UHGV virus genome: UHGV-0287902 | Direction: 5' to 3' (one strand) | DNA length: 38,964 nucleotides | From: a virus | Shown here: positions 14,750 to 36,476 of the stretch, piece by piece | Layout: every line of letters starts with the position of its first letter | How positions within the stretch are numbered: position 1 is the stretch's first letter | The notes under the pieces: generated by a model | Database searches by the model: none | What the model saw: only the letters and a program-made list of their open reading frames with translations | Told to the model about the DNA's origin: nothing | Made by a program: the position numbers and the translations under genes

Positions 14750-16338
14750 TGGGACGCATAATTGATCTTGACGGAAAACCTTTCTCCTTTGACCCGGAGA
14801 TGCAAAGTACCGCGCTGGATATTCCGCAGATTGCCAGCCGTTATGTTGAGCATCCCGCCTCGGGTATCACCCCGAACCGGGCGGCGCAGTGCCTTCGCGG
14901 GGCTGAACGTGGCGATCTGATTGCCCAGTCCGATCTGGCGGCTGACATTGAAGAAAAGGACACCCACCTTTTTGCGGAGCTGGGCAAGCGACGTCTTGCC
15001 ATTCAGGGGGTGCCATGGAGCATTGAGCCGCCACCGAACGCCAGCGCGAATGAGAAAAAGGACGCGGAAATGCTCGACGAATATCTGCATTCCGCCGACT
15101 GGTTTGATGCCATGTTATTTGATGCCACCGATGCCATCCTGAAGGGCTATTCCTGCATGGAGATTGAGCACGGGATGCTCGGTAAGATGCACATCATCCG
15201 CGCCATCCGATGGCGTGACAGCGGGCATTTCTGCCTTAACCCGGATGATTTGAGCGAACTGCGGCTGCGTGACGGCAGCCATGCCGGGGTGGCGTTTCAG
15301 CCCTTTGGCTGGATAGTGCATCAGTCGCGTTCACGCACCGGCTACGGTGGTGCGACGGGGCTTGTCAGAACGCTTATCTGGCCGTTCATTTTCAAAAACT
15401 ATTCCGTGCGCGATCTGGCGGAATTTCTGGAGGTGTACGGTCTGCCAATGAAGGTCGGGAAATACCCGTCCGGGGCAACACCGGAGCAGAAAAGTGCCCT
15501 GATGCGGGCGGTGATGGATATCGGGCGACGTACAGGCGGGATCATCCCGGCCGGGATGTCGCTGGAGTTTCAGGCGGCAGCGAACGGTCAGGCCGATCCG
15601 TTTGAAACCATGATTTCGTGGGGTGAGCGTTCCATCTCCAAAGCAATACTCGGCGGCACGCTGACCACAGAAGCCGGAGACAAAGGCGCGCGCTCGCTGG
15701 GTGAGGTGCATAACGAGGTGCGCCGGGAAATCAGGGATTCTGATTTACGCCAGCTGGCTGCAACCCTGAACCGCGATCTGGTGTATCCGCTGTATGCCCT
15801 GAACACCGCCCACGCCATTGATATCCGTCGCCTGCCGCGTATCTGTTTCCAGACCAAAGAACCGGGGGATATCACCAAAATAGCCAGTGCGGTGATGCAA
15901 CTCAGTGCGGGGATGGATATTCCTGATCCCTGGGTACGGGATCAGACCGGTATTCCACAGCCCACGCCCGGTGAAGCCATATTCCGTGTCCGTCAGAGCA
16001 GTAATGAACCGGCCATGCCTGACAGGGAAACGCTACCGGAAAAACAGGAAAAGACAGAACAGACGGCGCTTTCAGCCCGACTGCCGGAAGCGAAAAACAC
16101 GCCGCGTGATGAACTGGACGACATGGGGGACGCGGTGCCTGCCCGCCGCTTACAGGAGGCCATCGATCCGGTGCTGGAGCCGGTCATTGATGTCATCAGA
16201 ACGCGGGGGCTGGCGGAGGCACTGGCAGACCTGCCTGCCCTTTACCGTGAAATGGATGATTCCCGCCTGATGACGCTGCTCAGTGATGCCATGTTTGCTG
16301 CGGAAATGAAGGGGATGCTGGATGGCTCAGGGGATTGA
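14740..16338 (+). CDS. portal protein (Mu gp29-like)
   Basis: 532 aa; GTG start overlapping TerL stop. Confidence 0.9.
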   Translation: MLVVGRIIDLDGKPFSFDPEMQSTALDIPQIASRYVEHPASGITPNRAAQCLRGAERGDLIAQSDLAADIEEKDTHLFAELGKRRLAIQGVPWSIEPPPNASANEKKDAEMLDEYLHSADWFDAMLFDATDAILKGYSCMEIEHGMLGKMHIIRAIRWRDSGHFCLNPDDLSELRLRDGSHAGVAFQPFGWIVHQSRSRTGYGGATGLVRTLIWPFIFKNYSVRDLAEFLEVYGLPMKVGKYPSGATPEQKSALMRAVMDIGRRTGGIIPAGMSLEFQAAANGQADPFETMISWGERSISKAILGGTLTTEAGDKGARSLGEVHNEVRREIRDSDLRQLAATLNRDLVYPLYALNTAHAIDIRRLPRICFQTKEPGDITKIASAVMQLSAGMDIPDPWVRDQTGIPQPTPGEAIFRVRQSSNEPAMPDRETLPEKQEKTEQTALSARLPEAKNTPRDELDDMGDAVPARRLQEAIDPVLEPVIDVIRTRGLAEALADLPALYREMDDSRLMTLLSDAMFAAEMKGMLDGSGD

Positions 16339-17653
16339 TTTAGGTTATGCCGCCACGCTTCCCTCAAAAGAGACGGTGGCATACTTCCGCGCCAAAGGGG
16401 CGCATATCAGCTGGAACTGGTTCGAAACAGACGCGGATGTTCATGCCCGCTCATTCACGGCAGCAAAAACGGCACGGCTGGATGTGGTAACCACATTACA
16501 GGCCGAAGTGCAGCGGGCCATTGATGAGGGGATTTCACAGAAAGAATTTATCCGCACACTGACGCCACGCCTGCAAAAGCTGGGATGGTGGGGAAAGCAG
16601 ATTGTGGTGGACAGCGACGGTAACGCGGAAGAAGTGCAGCAGGGCAGTCCCCGTCGTCTGGCGCTGATTTACAACGTGAACACCCGTGTGGCTTACAATG
16701 CCGGGCGTTACACGCAGATGATGAACAACACGGACACGCATCCGTTCTGGCAGTATGTGGCGGTCATGGACAGCCGTACCCGCCCGTCGCATTCCGCCCT
16801 TAACGGTCTGGTATTCCGCTATGACGATCCGTTCTGGAAAACACACTACCCGCCCAATGGCTGGAACTGCCGCTGCCGTGTGCGGCCATTGTCTCAGGCC
16901 CGTCTGGATGCAATGGGGTTATCCGTTTCATCCGGTGAGGATCATCTCTCCACCCGCAATGTTGAGGCTGGCGTGGATAAACAGACCGGAGAAGTCAGAG
17001 AAATGCCGGTGACCACATATTCAGATGGCACCAGAACCATGACACCGGATGTGGGCTGGTCATATAACCCCGGCTCGGCAGCGTTCGGCACAGACCAGGC
17101 GCTGATCCGCAAACTGATCGAGGTGAAAAGCCCGGCGTTACGGGAAATGGTGGTTCAGGAGATGAACAACAGCCCGGAGCGGCAGCTGGCGTTCCGCATC
17201 TGGGCAAAAAACATCATGCAGACCCGGCGAGGTGGTAACGATATCCGCACGCTGGGCTTTATGACTGAAAGCATTGCGCAGGCAGTGGAAAGCCGGACGG
17301 GAACGCCACCGGCCCGCCTGCTGGCGATGAGCGGTAAAAATGTGCTCCATGCGGACAGTGTGAAACATCAGAATGACGGCATCGCTCTGACGCCGGAGGA
17401 CTTCGGGCGCTTACCGGCAATGCTGGCAAGGCCAAAAGCGGTACTGTGGGACAAACGGCACAACAATCTGATGTATATCGTGGAAAATCAGGATGGCAGT
17501 GTGCAGATTGCCATTAATGCACCGTACAGTCTGAAACGTCAGCCCGACAAACTGGATGTGATTGTGAATGCTTACCGGGTTATCAATATGGATAAGCTGA
17601 AATCGGATATCCGGGGCGGAATGCTTGAGGTGCTGGAAGGACAAATTGATTAA
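16322..17653 (+). CDS. F: head morphogenesis protein (Mu F-like)
   Basis: 443 aa, synteny after portal. Confidence 0.9.
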   Translation: MAQGIDLGYAATLPSKETVAYFRAKGAHISWNWFETDADVHARSFTAAKTARLDVVTTLQAEVQRAIDEGISQKEFIRTLTPRLQKLGWWGKQIVVDSDGNAEEVQQGSPRRLALIYNVNTRVAYNAGRYTQMMNNTDTHPFWQYVAVMDSRTRPSHSALNGLVFRYDDPFWKTHYPPNGWNCRCRVRPLSQARLDAMGLSVSSGEDHLSTRNVEAGVDKQTGEVREMPVTTYSDGTRTMTPDVGWSYNPGSAAFGTDQALIRKLIEVKSPALREMVVQEMNNSPERQLAFRIWAKNIMQTRRGGNDIRTLGFMTESIAQAVESRTGTPPARLLAMSGKNVLHADSVKHQNDGIALTPEDFGRLPAMLARPKAVLWDKRHNNLMYIVENQDGSVQIAINAPYSLKRQPDKLDVIVNAYRVINMDKLKSDIRGGMLEVLEGQID

Positions 17654-17655
17654 CG

Positions 17656-17735
17656 GTCAGTGGCGGGGGTCGAACCCGCATACATGATCCACCCGGAGGC
17701 AGGCACCGACTTTACCAGTTAAGCGTACACTGACC
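17656..17735 (-). other. tRNA-like structured element (T-arm plus 7-bp acceptor-like stem), not a canonical tRNA
   Basis: Minus strand: GTCAGTG ... GCGGG-TTCGACC-CCCGC-CACTGAC-C; no convincing D or anticodon arm. Confidence 0.3.
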
Positions 17736-17774
17736 GCCTGTTTATTTTATATTCATCCTTTATGCGGAGGCAAT

Positions 17775-18248
17775 ATGTCATCCATTGATGCAACTGTCGT
17801 TGTTGACGTTACGCGTCTCCAGCGAGTGTTTGCCCGGCTTCAGTTTGTGGGCGGCGGAAAAGACCTGGCCCGCAGTGTGGCGGCGAGTCTTCTGTCATCG
17901 TCAGAAATGGCGTTTGAGCAGGAAAAAGAGCCGGATGGTGAACGCTGGCATGACTGGTCAGATCCTTACCGTGAGTGGCGTACCCGTAAGGGATACACGC
18001 CCGGCAAAATCCTGACGCTGAACGGCGATCTGGCCCGCCGCCTGACCACGGATTATGGCGATACCTGGGCGCTGATTGGATCAAATGAACCTTATGCAGC
18101 CATTCATCAGTGGGGTGGCCTGCCTGGTATGCCACCGGGACCGGCGGCCATTGGCGCACGTCCGTATATGGGCTTTGATCAGGTGGCAGAACAGGAGATC
18201 ATGGACGAAATCAGAAAACGCTTTAAAAAGGCCACAGAAACGCCGTAA
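17775..18248 (+). CDS. G: virion morphogenesis protein (Mu G-like)
   Basis: 157 aa; GGAGG RBS; synteny. Confidence 0.8.
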   Translation: MSSIDATVVVDVTRLQRVFARLQFVGGGKDLARSVAASLLSSSEMAFEQEKEPDGERWHDWSDPYREWRTRKGYTPGKILTLNGDLARRLTTDYGDTWALIGSNEPYAAIHQWGGLPGMPPGPAAIGARPYMGFDQVAEQEIMDEIRKRFKKATETP

Positions 18249-18425
18249 TGGTTTAAGGTATGCAAACGTATTACCTTACCCCCTTCAGGCGCGTGTCGTG
18301 ATTTTCTAACCTGTATTTAACGGGCTTTAAAATCTGCGTGAAGCGCCTTTCTCATTCCCCCCCTGTCAGCACTTTCTGAAGTCCCGCAAAACCAGCCCCA
18401 AAAATACCCGGCTTATGCTGCCGGT

Positions 18426-19559
18426 ATGAAGACAGAAAATCACCCAAAAGACGCAAATCGCCCCTCCGGTTTAGCCGTGCTTTCAGCTTCGCTGACTGCA
18501 TCCGGCGACGGATGGTGTCAGTTACTGCCAGCCGGTCGGGTAAAGGCCCGTGACGGTCGCCCGGAAAAACCGACTGAAGGCTGGCTGATTAACGAATCCG
18601 CCTGTAACCGGATGAAAGCCGGGCTTTCCGCCCTGCATCAGCCGTTACTGATTGATTATGACCATCACTCCGTGAATGCGCAGAAAAACGGATTCAAGGC
18701 TATTGCTGCAGGATGGGTTAAGCCGGAAAACATCGAATGGCGTGAGGGTCAGGGGATTTTCATTAAACCTGAATGGACACCACAGGCACAAAAACATATT
18801 GATGACCGTGAATATGCCTATCTGTCTGCATATATGCATTATTTCGCTGACACCGGGGAACCCTACCTGTTGCGCATGGCTTCCCTGACGAATGATCCGG
18901 GTATTACGGGTATGAACCCTGTCGCGGCACTCAGTGCTGATGATCTCTATGTCGTTTCCCCTTCTCAGGAGCAATCCCCCATGAATGAGCAATTACGCCA
19001 GTTGCTGACGGCGCTCGGTCTGACCGTGGCTGACGGTGACGAATTTACACCGGAACTGGGCACGGCGGCGCTGTCTGCCCTTACCGGGATCAAAACCCGT
19101 GCGGATGCGCACGACACCCTGAAAACGCAGGTTGCCAGCCTGTCGGCAGAACTGGAAACCGCAAAAGGCACACCAACTGGCGGCACTATTGATCTGACGA
19201 AATATGTGCCCGTTGAGACGTATAACGCCCTGCGTACCGAATATGCCGCGCTGTCGGCACAACACGGCAGCACCACGCTGGAGCAGTTGCTGGATAAGGC
19301 CGAGTCCGAAGGACGCATTTTCAAAAGCGAACGCGGATACATGGAAGGACTCGGACAACAGATTGGCGTCGCGGCACTTTCTGCACAGCTTGACGCCCGC
19401 CAGCCGGTTGCGGCTCTGACCACTCTTCAGACCGACACCGTAACCGTGCCGGATAAAAAGACCGCCACCGCTGTGCTGTCGGCTGAAGATATCGCCGCCG
19501 CACGTCTGTTGGGTAAAACCGAAGCCGAGTTCCTGAAAATGAAAGAGGAAATGCAATAA
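18426..19559 (+). CDS. I: head maturation protease / scaffold (Mu I/Z-like)
   Basis: 377 aa; precedes major capsid gene; follows 177-bp non-coding gap. Confidence 0.85.
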   Translation: MKTENHPKDANRPSGLAVLSASLTASGDGWCQLLPAGRVKARDGRPEKPTEGWLINESACNRMKAGLSALHQPLLIDYDHHSVNAQKNGFKAIAAGWVKPENIEWREGQGIFIKPEWTPQAQKHIDDREYAYLSAYMHYFADTGEPYLLRMASLTNDPGITGMNPVAALSADDLYVVSPSQEQSPMNEQLRQLLTALGLTVADGDEFTPELGTAALSALTGIKTRADAHDTLKTQVASLSAELETAKGTPTGGTIDLTKYVPVETYNALRTEYAALSAQHGSTTLEQLLDKAESEGRIFKSERGYMEGLGQQIGVAALSAQLDARQPVAALTTLQTDTVTVPDKKTATAVLSAEDIAAARLLGKTEAEFLKMKEEMQ

Positions 19560-34421: not shown

Positions 34422-36476
34422 ATGTCAGACTCCAAGTGGAAAATGCTCTCCGCCATGCCCGGAGAGTTTTCAGTCAAGGTTGCCGGTGGCACGGTGGCAT
34501 TTATTGAAAGCCCTTTCCGCCCTTCGGGTAATAAAGGGGGGATCACCTTCGCAGACTGCGTGATCCGCTTCAGCACGAAAGAGCCATTATGGGTAATGCC
34601 GGTATCCGGTAATCCCAGTGCAGAAATCACCAGTTCAGGCGTGACTGGCATCATTCCAATCACATCTGACGTGGCCGGAACGCTCACGCCCTCCGACTGG
34701 AATGCACCGGATAACGCCGGGCCTTCCGGTAGCACGAATGGCAGCAGTTCAGAGCCGGAATATTACTTTGTTGTCATTCTCGCGGGTCAGTCAAATGGCA
34801 TGGCCTACGGCGAGGGGCTGCCGTTACCGGATTCGTTTGACCGCCCGGACCCACGCATTAAGCAACTGGCACGCCGCAGTACGGTAACGCCCAACGGTAC
34901 GTCGTGTACATACAACGACATCATTCCGGCAGACCACTGCCTGCATGATGTTCAGGATATGAGCGGGATAAACCACCCGAAAGCTGATCTGGCAAAAGGC
35001 CAGTACGGGACTGTCGGTCAGGGGTTGCATATTGCCAAAAAACTGCTTCCCTATATCCCACAGAATGCCGGGATACTTCTGGTGCCCTGTTGTCGTGGCG
35101 GGTCAGCATTCACCACTGGAGCCGACGGCTCATTCAGTGAGGCCAGCGGTGCTTCCGCTGATTCTTCACGCTGGGGGGCCGGTAAACCTCTGTATCAGGA
35201 CCTGGTAAGCCGCACCAAAGTCGCGCTGGCGAAAAACCCGAAAAACAAACTTCTGGCTGTGGTCTGGATGCAGGGAGAGGCAGACCTTGCCTCAGGAAGC
35301 CAGCAGCATAATAGTTTATTCACGGCCATGGTTCAGCAGTTCAGAACTGACCTGGCTCCGCTTGCTGCGCAGTGCGTGAGTGGAAATGCCACCACGGTGC
35401 CGTGGATTTGCGGTGATACCACGTATTACTGGAAAAACGCTGGCACCGATAAATATGAGGCAGTATACGGTGGCTACAAAGGCAAGGAAGCACAGAAAAT
35501 TTTCTTTGTACCGTTCCTGACGGATGAGAATGGACAGAGCACGCCAACGAATGCTCCGGCGGAAGACCCGGATATTGTGGCTGTCGGGTATTACGGTGCA
35601 GCATCCCGAACCCAGGGCAGTTTTGTTTCGACACAGCGTGACAGCCATTTCAGCTCATGGGCACGCAGGGGCGTCATTTCAGACCGTCTGGCCTCAGCTA
35701 TTATGCTCCATGCAGGGCGCACGGCTGAACTGATGCGCGGGCAGACCGTGACACCACCGGATGAGAAGCCGTCACCTGATACACCATCAAAACCGTCCAC
35801 GCCACCCGCAGACACCACGACGATGAGTACGCTATTTGCTTACCGGGCATCTGAGTCTGAAGGACGGTTGACACCACAGGGTTGGGCTGCCGGAGGTGGC
35901 AAGGCTCAAATCGTGGATGATGCCGGAGCCAGCGGGGGTAAGGCAATGAAACTGACCAAGGAAACAGGAAGAGCCCCCTGGTACCTTGAGCATGATGCTG
36001 GTAATGGTGCGGACCTGCTGGGTAAAGGTGGTCTTGTCAGTTGTCGTTTTAAACTCGATGGCGCGCTTACGGCTAATCAGTACGCACTGGCGCTGTACTG
36101 GCCGGTTTCTGCCCTGCCGCAAGGGGTTACTCTGGAAGGAAATGCCGGTCATAACCTGCTGGCATCGTTCTACGTACAGAGCGATGCCACAGACCTTAAC
36201 GTGATGTATCACAAAGGAAACACGGCGCAGAACACGAAGTTGGGGTCATTCGGCGCATTTAATAACGAATGGCATACGCTGGGCTTCCGTTTTGCCGGTA
36301 ACAACAGTATTGAGGTGACGCCGGTCATTGATGGTAAGGACGGGACACCATTCATGCTGTCGCAGTCTTCGGTCGGCACGTTTACGGCAGACAAGTTGCG
36401 CGTGACCGATATCACTAAAAATGCGACTTACCCGGTACTGATTGACAGTATCGTGGTGGAAGTGAATAACGCGTAA
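34422..36476 (+). CDS. SASA-domain carbohydrate O-acetylesterase (NanS-like) with C-terminal jelly-roll-like domain
   Basis: 684 aa; ILAGQSNGMAYGE motif, later RDSHF; Pro/Ser/Thr linker PPDEKPSPDTPSKPSTPPADTT; weak RBS. Confidence 0.8.
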   Translation: MSDSKWKMLSAMPGEFSVKVAGGTVAFIESPFRPSGNKGGITFADCVIRFSTKEPLWVMPVSGNPSAEITSSGVTGIIPITSDVAGTLTPSDWNAPDNAGPSGSTNGSSSEPEYYFVVILAGQSNGMAYGEGLPLPDSFDRPDPRIKQLARRSTVTPNGTSCTYNDIIPADHCLHDVQDMSGINHPKADLAKGQYGTVGQGLHIAKKLLPYIPQNAGILLVPCCRGGSAFTTGADGSFSEASGASADSSRWGAGKPLYQDLVSRTKVALAKNPKNKLLAVVWMQGEADLASGSQQHNSLFTAMVQQFRTDLAPLAAQCVSGNATTVPWICGDTTYYWKNAGTDKYEAVYGGYKGKEAQKIFFVPFLTDENGQSTPTNAPAEDPDIVAVGYYGAASRTQGSFVSTQRDSHFSSWARRGVISDRLASAIMLHAGRTAELMRGQTVTPPDEKPSPDTPSKPSTPPADTTTMSTLFAYRASESEGRLTPQGWAAGGGKAQIVDDAGASGGKAMKLTKETGRAPWYLEHDAGNGADLLGKGGLVSCRFKLDGALTANQYALALYWPVSALPQGVTLEGNAGHNLLASFYVQSDATDLNVMYHKGNTAQNTKLGSFGAFNNEWHTLGFRFAGNNSIEVTPVIDGKDGTPFMLSQSSVGTFTADKLRVTDITKNATYPVLIDSIVVEVNNA

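What the first reader, a model, noticed from the sequence alone, without database searches (positions are those of the whole stretch)
17654..17774. tRNA-like structured element between F and G
On the minus strand an 8-bp closing stem (GGTCAGTG/CACTGACC) encloses about 64 nt containing a perfect T-arm-like stem-loop GCGGG-TTCGACC-CCCGC, followed on the + strand by TTTATTTTAT. I could not build D or anticodon arms, so this is not a canonical tRNA; it may be a tRNA remnant, a structured terminator for the F operon, or an RNA processing signal.
Basis: seen in the sequence. Interest (0 to 1): 0.35.

Follow-up and report, generated by a model that had tools for sequence, protein, structure and literature searches.

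The report
Anticodon-less tRNA-shaped RNA gene in Mu-like prophages
Between two head-assembly genes of this Mu-like prophage, on the opposite strand and with its own promoter, sits a conserved gene for a tRNA-shaped RNA that cannot decode because its anticodon arm is replaced by a capped, highly variable hairpin; its function is unknown.

Summary
Window 17656-17734 (minus strand) encodes a 79-nt cloverleaf-like RNA with acceptor, D and T arms. Where an anticodon arm should be there is a 23-nt hairpin capped by a UCCG tetraloop.

It is not a remnant. Across 37 distinct relatives, 95.7% of base-pair cells are paired (43-52% in slid controls) and 16 of 19 pairs show compensatory changes. G.U outnumbers A.C cells 40 to 2, so the RNA is read from the minus strand. 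Every lineage keeps a -10-like hexamer 7-14 nt upstream, and one lineage adds an intrinsic terminator.

The gene lies antisense between F and G in 28 of 80 Mu-like loci, but not in Mu-type D108 or JBD30. It also occurs in 2-3-copy arrays in Mor-bearing islands beside candidate defence genes. The closing helix is 8-9 bp or longer, CCA is not encoded and the discriminator varies, so it is not a working tRNA. RefSeq labels it "tRNA-OTHER". I found no description of it.

Best reading: a stand-alone, non-decoding tRNA mimic acting in trans, possibly in phage-host conflict (inferred). A terminator role and CRISPR-repeat mimicry were tested and not supported.

The parts
17656..17734 (-). Body of the tRNA-like RNA (positions 1-72 in tRNA numbering, 79 nt)
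   Evidence: Own covariance model R1 scores it 75.1 bits, E = 4e-21. Rfam tRNA scores 31 bits with permissive filters. PGAP annotates the identical sequence as tRNA-OTHER on the minus strand.
17728..17734 (-). Acceptor-stem 5' strand GUCAGUG
   Evidence: All 7 acceptor pairs show compensatory changes across the family. The inner three pairs (GUG/CAC) are nearly invariant.
17656..17662 (-). Acceptor-stem 3' strand CACUGAC
   Evidence: Pairs with 17728-17734; helix 97.7% paired over 37 sequences.
17735..17738 (-). 5' extension of the closing helix (positions -1 to -4, GGCG); the predicted transcription start (about 17737) falls here
   Evidence: The -1:73 pair forms in 19 of 19 variants with 5 pair types, and -2:74 in 16 of 19. 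Extension length tracks the distance to the -10 hexamer.
17652..17655 (-). 3' extension of the closing helix (positions 73-76, CGUU); overlaps the F stop codon on the other strand
   Evidence: (the MFE closes an 11-bp stem).
17709..17724 (-). D arm GCUU-AACUGGUA-AAGU
   Evidence: D-loop G18G19, A14 and A21 are conserved in nearly all members. D-stem covariation seen as GAAU/AUUC and CCCG/CGGG in divergent lineages.
17684..17706 (-). Variable arm replacing the anticodon arm: basal GUG/CAU, 1x2 internal loop, CUGCC/GGUGG, UCCG tetraloop
   Evidence: The basal 3 bp covary (GUG/CAU, GCA/UGU, AC/GU, GCG/UGC). The distal part is always paired but differs in sequence and length, arms about 19-48 nt.
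17663..17679 (-). T arm GCGGG-UUCGACC-CCCGC
   Evidence: Canonical T-loop. Stem pairs 49:65, 50:64 and 51:63 covary; G52-C62 and G53-C61 are invariant.
17744..17749 (-). -10 promoter hexamer TAAAAT
   Evidence: The only sigma70-like site in 17300-18500. A -10-like hexamer is kept 7-14 nt upstream of position 1 in every lineage, although its sequence changes.
17768..17773 (-). -35 hexamer TTGCCT; overlaps the G Shine-Dalgarno sequence (GGAGG, 17766-17770, + strand)
   Evidence: sequence read.
17395..17755 (.). Approximate extent of the mosaic cassette (3' end of F, RNA gene and promoter) exchanged between otherwise near-identical phages
   Evidence: Sliding identity drops to 55-75% inside the block against 94-100% outside for same-clade, different-type pairs. 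The F C-terminal tail tracks RNA type.
16322..17653 (+). F (Phage_Mu_F + MuF_C head morphogenesis protein); its stop codon lies 2 nt from the RNA's acceptor 3' strand
   Evidence: Pfam; ORF.
17775..18248 (+). G (virion morphogenesis protein, Phage_tail_S family)
   Evidence: Pfam; ORF.

Best explanation
SHOWN. This is a real, separately transcribed gene for a tRNA-shaped non-coding RNA of about 80 nt, read from the minus strand against the late operon. The tRNA body (acceptor helix, D arm, T arm and the D-loop/T-loop nucleotides that form the tRNA elbow) is under strong purifying selection. The anticodon arm has been replaced by a hairpin that is always base-paired, usually capped by a 3-4-nt loop (often UNCG), and otherwise free to vary in sequence and length. 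The RNA therefore cannot decode a codon. Its closing helix is 8-9 bp or longer, with position 73 paired. No CCA is encoded, and the outer acceptor pairs and position 73, where synthetase identity elements usually lie, vary between members. A conserved aminoacylation identity is therefore unlikely. It is an accessory module of one subclade of Mu-like transposable prophages. It is absent from Mu-type D108, where F and G overlap. It is also carried, singly or as 2-3 tandem copies with different arms, by Mor-bearing islands next to candidate defence genes. It moves as a cassette: phages 94-100% identical elsewhere carry different arm types, and the same types recur in phage clades whose G proteins are only about 72% identical.

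INFERRED MECHANISM. The tRNA body lets the transcript use the host tRNA maturation and stability pathway (RNase P at the 5' end, which the internal copies of the polycistronic arrays would require). It also presents a tRNA-like surface. The RNA then acts in trans as a non-decoding tRNA mimic. [quoted passage not shown] I put about 0.9 on 'genuine non-decoding tRNA-like RNA gene', about 0.6 on 'acts in trans through its tRNA-like body', and about 0.3 on the specific pseudo-substrate or counter-defence role.
For: Structure: (94-96% of cells paired against 42-56% in slid controls; 8, 10 and 16 pairs with two-sided changes; 0 of 500 shuffles). Strand: (40 G.U against 2 A.C). Independent transcription: the promoter is the only sigma70-like site in 1.2 kb; a -10 hexamer is conserved in position but not sequence in all lineages; an intrinsic terminator GCCCCG-UUAUU-CGGGGC-UUUG directly follows the RNA in L227-L233. 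Non-decoding: no 7-nt anticodon loop in any member; ARAGORN finds none; Rfam tRNA is borderline or absent. Extended closing helix. Distribution and synteny: (28 of 80 G-centred loci); absence from D108, vB_YpM_23, YO098_1, JBD30 and Kp4852-3. Not a copy of a host tRNA. Accessory contexts. Cassette exchange. Trans rather than cis action: the RNA also occurs where there is no F-G transcript to oppose (L002, L144, L183, L186, L189, L191). Precedent for defences that cut anticodon stems, with arm-determined resistance, and for activation by RecBCD inhibition: PMC12445682. This prophage encodes a Gam-family protein.
Against: There are no expression, processing or binding data, so promoter activity and RNA ends are predictions. 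Conserved synteny down to about 41% G identity suggests an old, integrated role, not a fast-turnover counter-defence gene. Small capped hairpins look like structural plugs more than specificity elements, so arm diversity could be neutral drift plus recombination. A decoy would have to compete with a very large tRNA pool unless it binds much more tightly. The paired 5' end and paired position 73 are unfavourable for standard RNase P/CCA maturation. No tRNA-targeting partner gene is present in the prophage. The association with defence candidates rests on three contexts only.
Confidence: 0.55

Rival explanations
1. Cis-antisense regulator. The minus-strand promoter sits on the G ribosome-binding site and fires against the late transcript. 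Convergent transcription, or RNase III cleavage of the 80-bp duplex formed with the F-G mRNA, would tune or uncouple F and G expression or silence leaky late transcription in lysogens. The tRNA shape would only stabilise the antisense RNA.
For: The orientation and position between F and G hold in every Mu-like member. The -35 hexamer overlaps the G Shine-Dalgarno sequence. The transcript must run antisense into the F 3' end, because most lineages have no terminator. RNA and target are the same DNA, so they would necessarily be exchanged together as a cassette. Mu-type phages without the RNA have F and G translationally overlapped.
Against: The same RNA occurs in islands with no F or G nearby, including tandem arrays. 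A simple antisense RNA needs none of the conserved tRNA tertiary nucleotides (U8, A14, G18G19, U54-U55-C56, A58). One lineage terminates immediately after the tRNA-like part, giving almost no antisense overlap with F.
Confidence: 0.2
2. DNA-level or relic explanation. The element is a tRNA pseudogene, or an attP/attB-type tRNA fragment left by or used for site-specific integration of another element such as a satellite.
For: tRNA-like sequences in phages are often att sites (phage L/P22 example, PMC8022706). Copies lie at the edges of islands. About half of E. coli copies carry a T-loop substitution, and six IMG/VR loci carry A58C.
Against: Full-length cloverleaf with compensatory changes in all helices. 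Strand-specific G.U bias. Own promoter and, in one lineage, own terminator. No integrase nearby, and Mu-like phages transpose rather than integrate. No similarity to any host tRNA gene. The common T-loop change G57A is purine for purine.
Confidence: 0.05
3. A functional decoding or suppressor tRNA with an unusual or interrupted anticodon arm (PGAP calls one relative tRNA-Tyr).
For: PGAP annotates tRNA-OTHER and, for L002a, tRNA-Tyr. Rfam tRNA scores 31-35 bits for some members.
Against: No member has a 5-bp stem with a 7-nt loop. Loops are 3-4 nt caps or 6-14 nt with no conserved U33 or purine-37 context. Arm length varies from about 19 to 48 nt. Position 73 is paired, CCA is not encoded and acceptor identity positions vary. 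ARAGORN rejects all members tested.
Confidence: 0.03
4. + strand feature of the late mRNA: an intrinsic terminator or processing structure between F and G.
For: On the + strand in this window, the closing stem is followed by TTTATTTTAT.
Against: The + strand fold is weaker (z = -0.97) and would turn 40 G.U cells into A.C mismatches. The T-run is not conserved where the -10 hexamer differs. The scan finds no terminator-like site on the + strand.
Confidence: 0.03
5. A tRNA-scaffolded RNA anti-CRISPR: the variable arm mimics host CRISPR repeat hairpins and titrates Cas proteins.
For: Racrs are promoter-proximal repeat mimics in phages (PMC10651486). Mu-like Pseudomonas phages keep their anti-CRISPR locus one gene away from this position. 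By eye, L002a's hairpin resembles the E. coli I-F repeat hairpin.
Against: Tested against authentic I-F and I-E repeats. The best shared substring or local alignment is matched by 146-225 of 1000 (I-F) and 525-629 of 1000 (I-E) shuffled repeats, and reversed or complemented controls score the same.
Confidence: 0.03

Closest known systems
Canonical bacterial and phage tRNA genes (Rfam RF00005)
   Same: Acceptor, D and T arms; U8, A14, G18G19, A21 and the U54-U55-C56-R57-A58 T-loop; invariant G53-C61; 4-nt variable loop; about 80 nt; sigma70 promoter close upstream; tandem arrays with short spacers in some elements.
   Different: No anticodon stem-loop. Closing helix of 8-9 bp or more with position 73 paired. 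An extra nucleotide after position 9. No encoded CCA. Variable identity positions. Borderline or failing covariance-model scores.
Engineered 'tRNA scaffold' RNAs, in which a cargo RNA is inserted in place of the anticodon stem-loop so that E. coli processes and stabilises it as a tRNA (Ponchon and Dardel 2007, recalled from memory)
   Same: Identical architecture: a conserved tRNA body with an arbitrary structured insert replacing the anticodon arm.
   Different: This is a natural gene family. The inserts are short capped hairpins with no recognised cargo function. The acceptor end is extended and not a free NCCA.
Non-decoding tRNA-like RNAs: the tmRNA tRNA-like domain, the Bacillus cereus pseudo-tRNA 'tRNA-Other', and the tRNA-like domain of bacterial Y RNA YrlA (from memory)
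   Same: They use a tRNA-like top half and elbow without decoding. L143 weakly matches the ends of the tmRNA model (17.6 bits).
   Different: No G3:U70 and no mRNA-like module, so not tmRNA. The ends lie in the acceptor helix and there is no rsr neighbour, so not YrlA. Different sequence and context from B. cereus tRNA-Other.
Phage tRNAs that counter tRNA-targeting defences (T5 tRNA-Lys against PARIS; phage tRNA-Thr against P2-OLD, PMC12445682; T6 tRNA-Tyr against Septu, PMC13096335)
   Same: A phage-encoded tRNA-shaped RNA in a conflict context. For OLD, resistance is determined by changes in the anticodon arm.
   Different: Those are functional decoding tRNAs that replace the cleaved host species. 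This RNA cannot decode, so it could only act as a decoy or inhibitor.
RNase P-processed phage immunity RNAs (P1/P7 C4 and P4 CI, Rfam RF01695; from memory)
   Same: Phage RNAs of about 77-80 nt matured by tRNA-processing enzymes, whose variable region sets specificity types.
   Different: No Rfam match. No convincing complementary target elsewhere in the prophage. The variable region here is a closed, capped hairpin.

Membership tests
Canonical tRNA | Anticodon arm: 5-bp stem with a 7-nt loop carrying U33 and the anticodon | tested here: not met
   The window arm is 3 bp, a 1x2 loop, 5 bp and a UCCG tetraloop. No member has a 7-nt anticodon loop. The Rfam alignment skips the region.
Canonical tRNA | 7-bp acceptor stem with unpaired discriminator 73 and a 3' CCA (encoded in E. 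coli tRNA genes) | tested here: not met
   The -1:73 pair forms in 19 of 19 variants and -2:74 in 16 of 19. No CCA follows position 73 in any member.
Canonical tRNA | D arm and T arm with the conserved tertiary nucleotides | tested here: met
   A14, G18G19, A21, the UUCRA T-loop and G53-C61 are conserved in nearly all members.
Canonical tRNA | Detected by tRNA gene finders or covariance models at curated thresholds | tested here: inconclusive
   ARAGORN finds none. Rfam with default filters finds none. With permissive filters it scores 31 bits against a gathering score of 29. L002a, L002b and L139 score 32-35 bits, while L003, L005, L143, L138 and L144 do not match. PGAP labels it tRNA-OTHER.
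Canonical tRNA | Aminoacylation and use in translation | not testable with these tools
   Needs acid-gel or periodate assays and ribosome association data.
tmRNA (one- or two-piece) | G3:U70 alanine identity pair plus an mRNA-like tag reading frame | tested here: not met
   Position 3:70 is C-G, U-A, A-U or G-C. ARAGORN reports no tmRNA. The Rfam tmRNA score is at most 17.6 bits against a gathering score of 47.
Intrinsic terminator of the late operon (+ strand) | G+C-rich hairpin immediately followed by a conserved U-tract on the mRNA strand | tested here: not met
   No + strand terminator-like site. The T-run is not conserved. The pairing bias favours the minus strand.
RNA anti-CRISPR (Racr / solitary repeat unit) | Sequence and structure similarity to a host CRISPR repeat | tested here: not met
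   Similarity to authentic E. coli I-F and I-E repeats is no better than to shuffled or reversed repeats.
attP/attB-type tRNA fragment | Partial tRNA identical to a host tRNA 3' part, next to an integrase | tested here: not met
   Full-length structure. No host tRNA similarity. No integrase nearby; this is a transposable prophage with MuA and MuB homologues.
C4/CI-type antisense immunity RNA | Exposed variable loop complementary to a target in the phage's own transcripts | tested here: inconclusive
   No Rfam C4 hit. The best trans duplex is -45.1 kcal/mol against a null of -37.1, sd 1.9, minimum -43.7 (n = 30), but it is discontinuous and lies in a baseplate gene. The longest exact complement is 11 nt, which I estimate is about what chance gives.

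The most novel reading that the evidence does not exclude
A natural 'tRNA scaffold' family. Mu-like transposable phages and their Mor-bearing satellites encode tRNA-bodied RNAs whose swapped-in arm makes them uncleavable pseudo-substrates, or inhibitors, of immune nucleases that recognise tRNA shape and cut the anticodon arm. Arm types would be kept polymorphic by an arms race, exchanged as cassettes, and stacked three to an array in satellites. This would be an RNA-only counter-defence against tRNA-targeting immunity.
Probability: 0.25. Interest if true: 0.85.

Novelty: new variant of a known kind. Interest (0 to 1): 0.6.

Why it matters
Phage tRNA genes are usually explained by codon supply or, more recently, by replacement of host tRNAs destroyed by defence nucleases. 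This family cannot decode, yet its tRNA fold has been preserved by selection across deeply diverged transposable phages. The arm that normally carries the anticodon, meanwhile, has become a variable module that is exchanged between near-identical phages and stacked in arrays in related islands beside candidate defence genes. So the tRNA shape itself is the selected property. If the RNA is a mimic or decoy, it would add an RNA-only strategy to the conflict over tRNA-targeting immunity and would be a natural counterpart of the engineered tRNA scaffold. Practically, about 230 of 5426 complete E. coli genomes carry this F-G region. RefSeq labels many of the RNA copies with the uninformative name tRNA-OTHER, and leaves copies that differ by one T-loop base unannotated. 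A dedicated covariance model separates the family cleanly (39-75 bits for all but the most divergent member, 26.7 bits, against 35 for a genuine tRNA and under 22 for everything else).

Tried and rejected
1. **ARAGORN and Rfam at gathering threshold** gave no hit. Only the permissive Rfam scan matched tRNA.
2. **First viral pattern scan** (GGTARAG...GGGTTCRACCCCC) was too loose and mostly returned ordinary tRNAs. Of the genome-contig hits to the D-arm pattern, all but the Shewanella one were coding sequence or unrelated.
3. **MAFFT on full-length sequences** put the acceptor stems of the divergent group out of register (A2). It was replaced by scaffold-only alignments (A3, A6) and a model-fitted alignment (A8).
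4. **Terminator or conserved structure in the 3' trailer** (antisense to the F tail): none found in the E. coli-type lineages. The co-variation of the F tail with RNA type is therefore attributed to linkage.
5. **Trans antisense target of the variable arm** within the prophage: not convincing.
6. **CRISPR-repeat mimicry (Racr-like):** rejected statistically.
7. **P2-OLD's paired CNG motif in the arms:** checked by eye only. It is present in L002a (CAG/CUG) but not in the window arm, so it is not used as evidence.
8. **Partner gene in the prophage:** the gene map shows none. DUF6645 has no PADLOC hit.
9. **Literature:** eight searches found no description of this RNA.
10. An L195 scaffold typing error in A5 was corrected in A6. 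A5 was not used.
Full report
**What is at the coordinates.** The window is essentially one complete Mu-like transposable prophage, inserted in an sgrR-family gene. It runs from repressor, MuA/MuB-type transposition genes, Gam and Mor through lysis, terminase, portal, F, G, protease, major head and tail genes to a Gin-like invertase and Com/Mom. This comes from the RefSeq annotation of a 99.8%-identical copy. F (16322-17653; Pfam Phage_Mu_F and MuF_C) and G (17775-18248; Phage_tail_S family) are on the + strand. The finding lies in the 121-nt gap between them. On the minus strand, 17656-17734 can be written as a tRNA: acceptor GUCAGUG/CACUGAC, U8-A9, one extra C, D arm GCUU-AACUGGUA-AAGU, T arm GCGGG-UUCGACC-CCCGC and a 4-nt variable loop GUAU. 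The anticodon arm is not canonical. It is a 23-nt hairpin made of GUG/CAU, a 1x2 internal loop, CUGCC/GGUGG and a UCCG tetraloop.

**Is it more than chance?** As a single sequence, no. The fold has z = -1.76, ARAGORN finds nothing and Rfam at its gathering threshold finds nothing. With permissive filters the Rfam tRNA model matches at 31.0 bits against a gathering score of 29, and it skips the anticodon region. The comparative evidence settles the question. I collected relatives in four ways: from E. coli genomes, from IMG/VR and metagenome pattern scans, from one Shewanella genome contig, and, without sequence bias toward the RNA, from 80 viral loci fetched through the neighbouring G protein. 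On a scaffold alignment not fitted to any structure model (A6, 19 variants), 94.0% of pair cells are standard pairs against 43-55% when partners are slid. Ten pairs change on both sides, and none of 500 column shuffles reaches the observed values (earlier version). On a model-fitted alignment of 37 distinct sequences (A8), 95.7% are paired and 16 of 19 pairs show compensatory changes. That includes all seven acceptor pairs, all four D-stem pairs and the three basal pairs of the variable arm. Only the two universal G-C pairs of the T stem never vary. A covariance model built from the scaffold scores the family at 39-75 bits (26.7 for the most divergent member, in L232). A genuine tRNA scores 35 and everything else scores under 22.

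**Which strand, and is it a gene?** There are 40 G.U cells against 2 A.C cells, so the helices work on the minus (tRNA-sense) strand. On the late-mRNA strand pairing would fall to 84%. The only sigma70-like promoter in 17300-18500 is on the minus strand: TTGCCT, an 18-nt spacer, then TAAAAT, with the -10 hexamer at 17749-17744, 9 nt before position 1. A -10-like hexamer sits 7-14 nt upstream of position 1 in every lineage, although its sequence changes (TAAAAT, TATACT, TATGCT, TATATT, TATAAT, TACTAT), and some have a TGn extension. In the L227-L233 lineage the RNA is followed within a few nucleotides by a textbook intrinsic terminator, GCCCCG-UUAUU-CGGGGC-UUUG. So this is a stand-alone transcription unit pointing against the late operon.

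**How it departs from a tRNA.**
- **No anticodon loop.** No member has a 5-bp stem with a 7-nt loop. The arm has a covarying basal stem of 2-5 bp, usually an asymmetric internal loop, then a distal stem of 3-8 bp closed by a 3-4-nt cap (UCCG, UUCG, GUAC, UCAG and others). In one type the loop is 6-14 nt. Total arm length ranges from about 19 to 48 nt.
- **Longer closing helix.** The helix is longer than 7 bp. The -1:73 pair forms in 19 of 19 variants with five pair types, and -2:74 forms in 16 of 19. The extension is 2, 4, 7 or 8 bp depending on the lineage, and the distance from the -10 hexamer grows with it. The predicted start site therefore falls at or within 2 nt of the outermost paired base in most lineages (with my correction recorded in the notebook). 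There are only about six independent lineages, so this is suggestive and not proven.
- **No conserved charging signals.** No CCA is encoded. Position 73 and the four outer acceptor pairs, where synthetase identity elements usually lie, vary freely.
- **Borderline detection.** Rfam's tRNA model scores some members at 32-35 bits and fails on others. PGAP calls the gene "tRNA-OTHER" and calls one relative "tRNA-Tyr" because GUA happens to sit in its loop. Copies differing by a single T-loop base (G57A, about half of E. coli copies) are left unannotated.

No host tRNA gene resembles it at E <= 1e-3.

**Distribution and context.** In E. coli, 230 of 5426 complete genomes carry the F-G region. The RNA lies antisense between F and G even where F is about 44% identical and G about 41-47% identical. 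Of the 80 G-centred viral loci, 28 have it. All 13 loci with G at 72% identity or more have it, and a patchwork of those below do. It is absent from Mu-type D108 and Yersinia vB_YpM_23, where F and G overlap by 4 nt. It is also absent from Ralstonia YO098_1, Klebsiella Kp4852-3 and Pseudomonas JBD30, where F and G abut and the accessory anti-CRISPR locus sits one gene downstream, between G and the protease gene. So it is an accessory module of one subclade, not core Mu-like content.

It also occurs outside Mu-like prophages:
- Two- or three-copy tandem arrays with 24-nt spacers lie downstream of a Mor gene at the edge of islands (L002, L183, L186, L189, L191). In L191 the array is followed by a Bro-N protein that matches the PADLOC candidate PDC-S13.
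- A single copy lies 218 nt upstream of a DUF2971/PDC-S31 candidate, with a full-length PDC-S06 AAA_13 ATPase, a Mor gene and a Mu-like gpT capsid gene nearby (L144, L129).

Internal copies of the arrays must be released endonucleolytically, which points to tRNA-type processing. That is an inference.

**Arm types move as cassettes.** At least five arm and junction types can be distinguished: A (the window), B, C, D and E. Types A, B and C each occur in two phage clades whose G proteins are about 72% identical. Within a clade, phages that are 94-100% identical across F and G fall to 55-75% identity over about 350 nt. That block covers the last 20-65 codons of F, the RNA gene and its promoter. 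Same-type pairs from different clades peak at 96-99% over the RNA body. The last ~20 residues of F follow the RNA type. I attribute this to linkage, because the trailers show no conserved structure and type B tails and arms do not co-vary consistently. The three copies in the island arrays correspond to types C, B and A, in that order.

**Mechanism: shown and inferred.** Shown: selection preserves the tRNA body, including the elbow nucleotides, but not the anticodon arm's sequence or length. The gene is autonomous. It travels as an accessory cassette. From this I infer that the RNA works through its tRNA-like body. That body would give entry to the tRNA maturation and stability pathway and would be recognised by a factor that binds tRNA shape. 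The architecture is the same as engineered tRNA scaffolds, in which a cargo replaces the anticodon stem-loop (recalled from memory). Because the RNA also occurs where no F-G transcript exists, action in trans is more likely than a purely cis-antisense role.

My preferred specific mechanism, at about 0.3 probability, is a pseudo-substrate or decoy for an enzyme that docks on tRNA and acts on the anticodon arm. Prophage-encoded P2-OLD is an example. [quoted passage not shown] This prophage encodes a Gam-family protein that PGAP annotates as a host-nuclease inhibitor. Septu likewise cleaves tRNA-Tyr (PMC13096335). This is reasoning by analogy and association, not evidence.

**Rivals.**
- **Cis-antisense regulator (0.2).** The -35 hexamer overlaps the G ribosome-binding site and transcription converges on the late operon. 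However, this does not explain the conserved tertiary nucleotides or the copies outside F-G.
- **Relic or att site (0.05).** Contradicted by the covariation, the strand bias and the promoter.
- **Decoding tRNA (0.03).** Contradicted by the arm and the acceptor end.
- **+ strand terminator (0.03).** Contradicted as described above.
- **tRNA-scaffolded anti-CRISPR (0.03).** I tested the resemblance that L002a's hairpin bears to the E. coli I-F repeat, using authentic I-F and I-E repeats. It is no better than with shuffled or reversed repeats.
- **Trans antisense target.** A search for a target of the arm elsewhere in the prophage gave only a borderline, discontinuous duplex.

**Novelty and verdict.** The gene is visible in RefSeq as "tRNA-OTHER", so its existence is not new. 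Eight full-text searches found no description of a conserved anticodon-less tRNA-like RNA in Mu-like phages. Rfam 15 has no family for it beyond the borderline tRNA match. I classify it as a new variant of a known kind (phage-encoded tRNA-like RNA) and a real feature. It has a well-supported structure and an unresolved function, and the function is directly testable.

Noticed in passing
window ~17395-17755 (compared with L003, L077, L044, L132, L134): A discrete mosaic block: phages 94-100% identical across F and G drop to 55-75% over the last 20-65 codons of F, the RNA gene and its promoter. The same three RNA types recur in two phage clades whose G proteins are about 72% identical.
   Followed up: yes
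L191:1132-2664; L002:3996-4296; L183, L186, L189: Mor-bearing islands that are not Mu-like prophages carry 2-3 tandem tRNA-like copies with different arm types (order C-B-A, 24-nt spacers) at the island edge. In L191 a Bro-N protein matching PADLOC candidate PDC-S13 follows the array. Some first copies are chimeric, which suggests unequal recombination.
   Followed up: partly
L144:2294-8306 (same element in L129): A mosaic element with Mor, a Mu-like gpT capsid gene, a full-length PDC-S06 AAA_13 ATPase (E = 2e-180) and a DUF2971/PDC-S31 gene 218 nt downstream of a tRNA-like copy. It may be a satellite of Mu-like phages carrying defence cargo.
   Followed up: partly
L181:1206-1620; L232:2129-2434: Two Mu-like contigs carry two different tRNA-like genes in tandem upstream of G. 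In L181 the whole unit (F tail, RNA, promoter, G start) appears duplicated, with two different arm types.
   Followed up: partly
window 18249-18425 (G-protease intergenic region): A 177-nt gap with two terminator-like hairpins on the minus strand (18424-18408 and 18466-18446). The equivalent slot holds acrF1/aca1 in Pseudomonas phage JBD30 and, from memory, the late promoter and strong gyrase site region of Mu.
   Followed up: no
window ~34422-36476: A 684-aa DUF6645 protein gene between the Gin-like recombinase and com/mom. It looks like accessory cargo. It has no match in PADLOC.
   Followed up: partly
window 17669 (T-loop position 57) in relatives such as L006, L131, L133; position 58 in L127, L128 and others: About half of E. 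coli copies carry G57A (purine for purine), and PGAP does not annotate those copies. Six IMG/VR loci carry A58C, which should break the T54-A58 pair and may mark inactive copies.
   Followed up: partly
window ends (~1-440 and ~38700-38964): The window spans a whole Mu-like prophage plus short flanks of a split sgrR-family regulator gene, consistent with insertion by transposition.
   Followed up: partly
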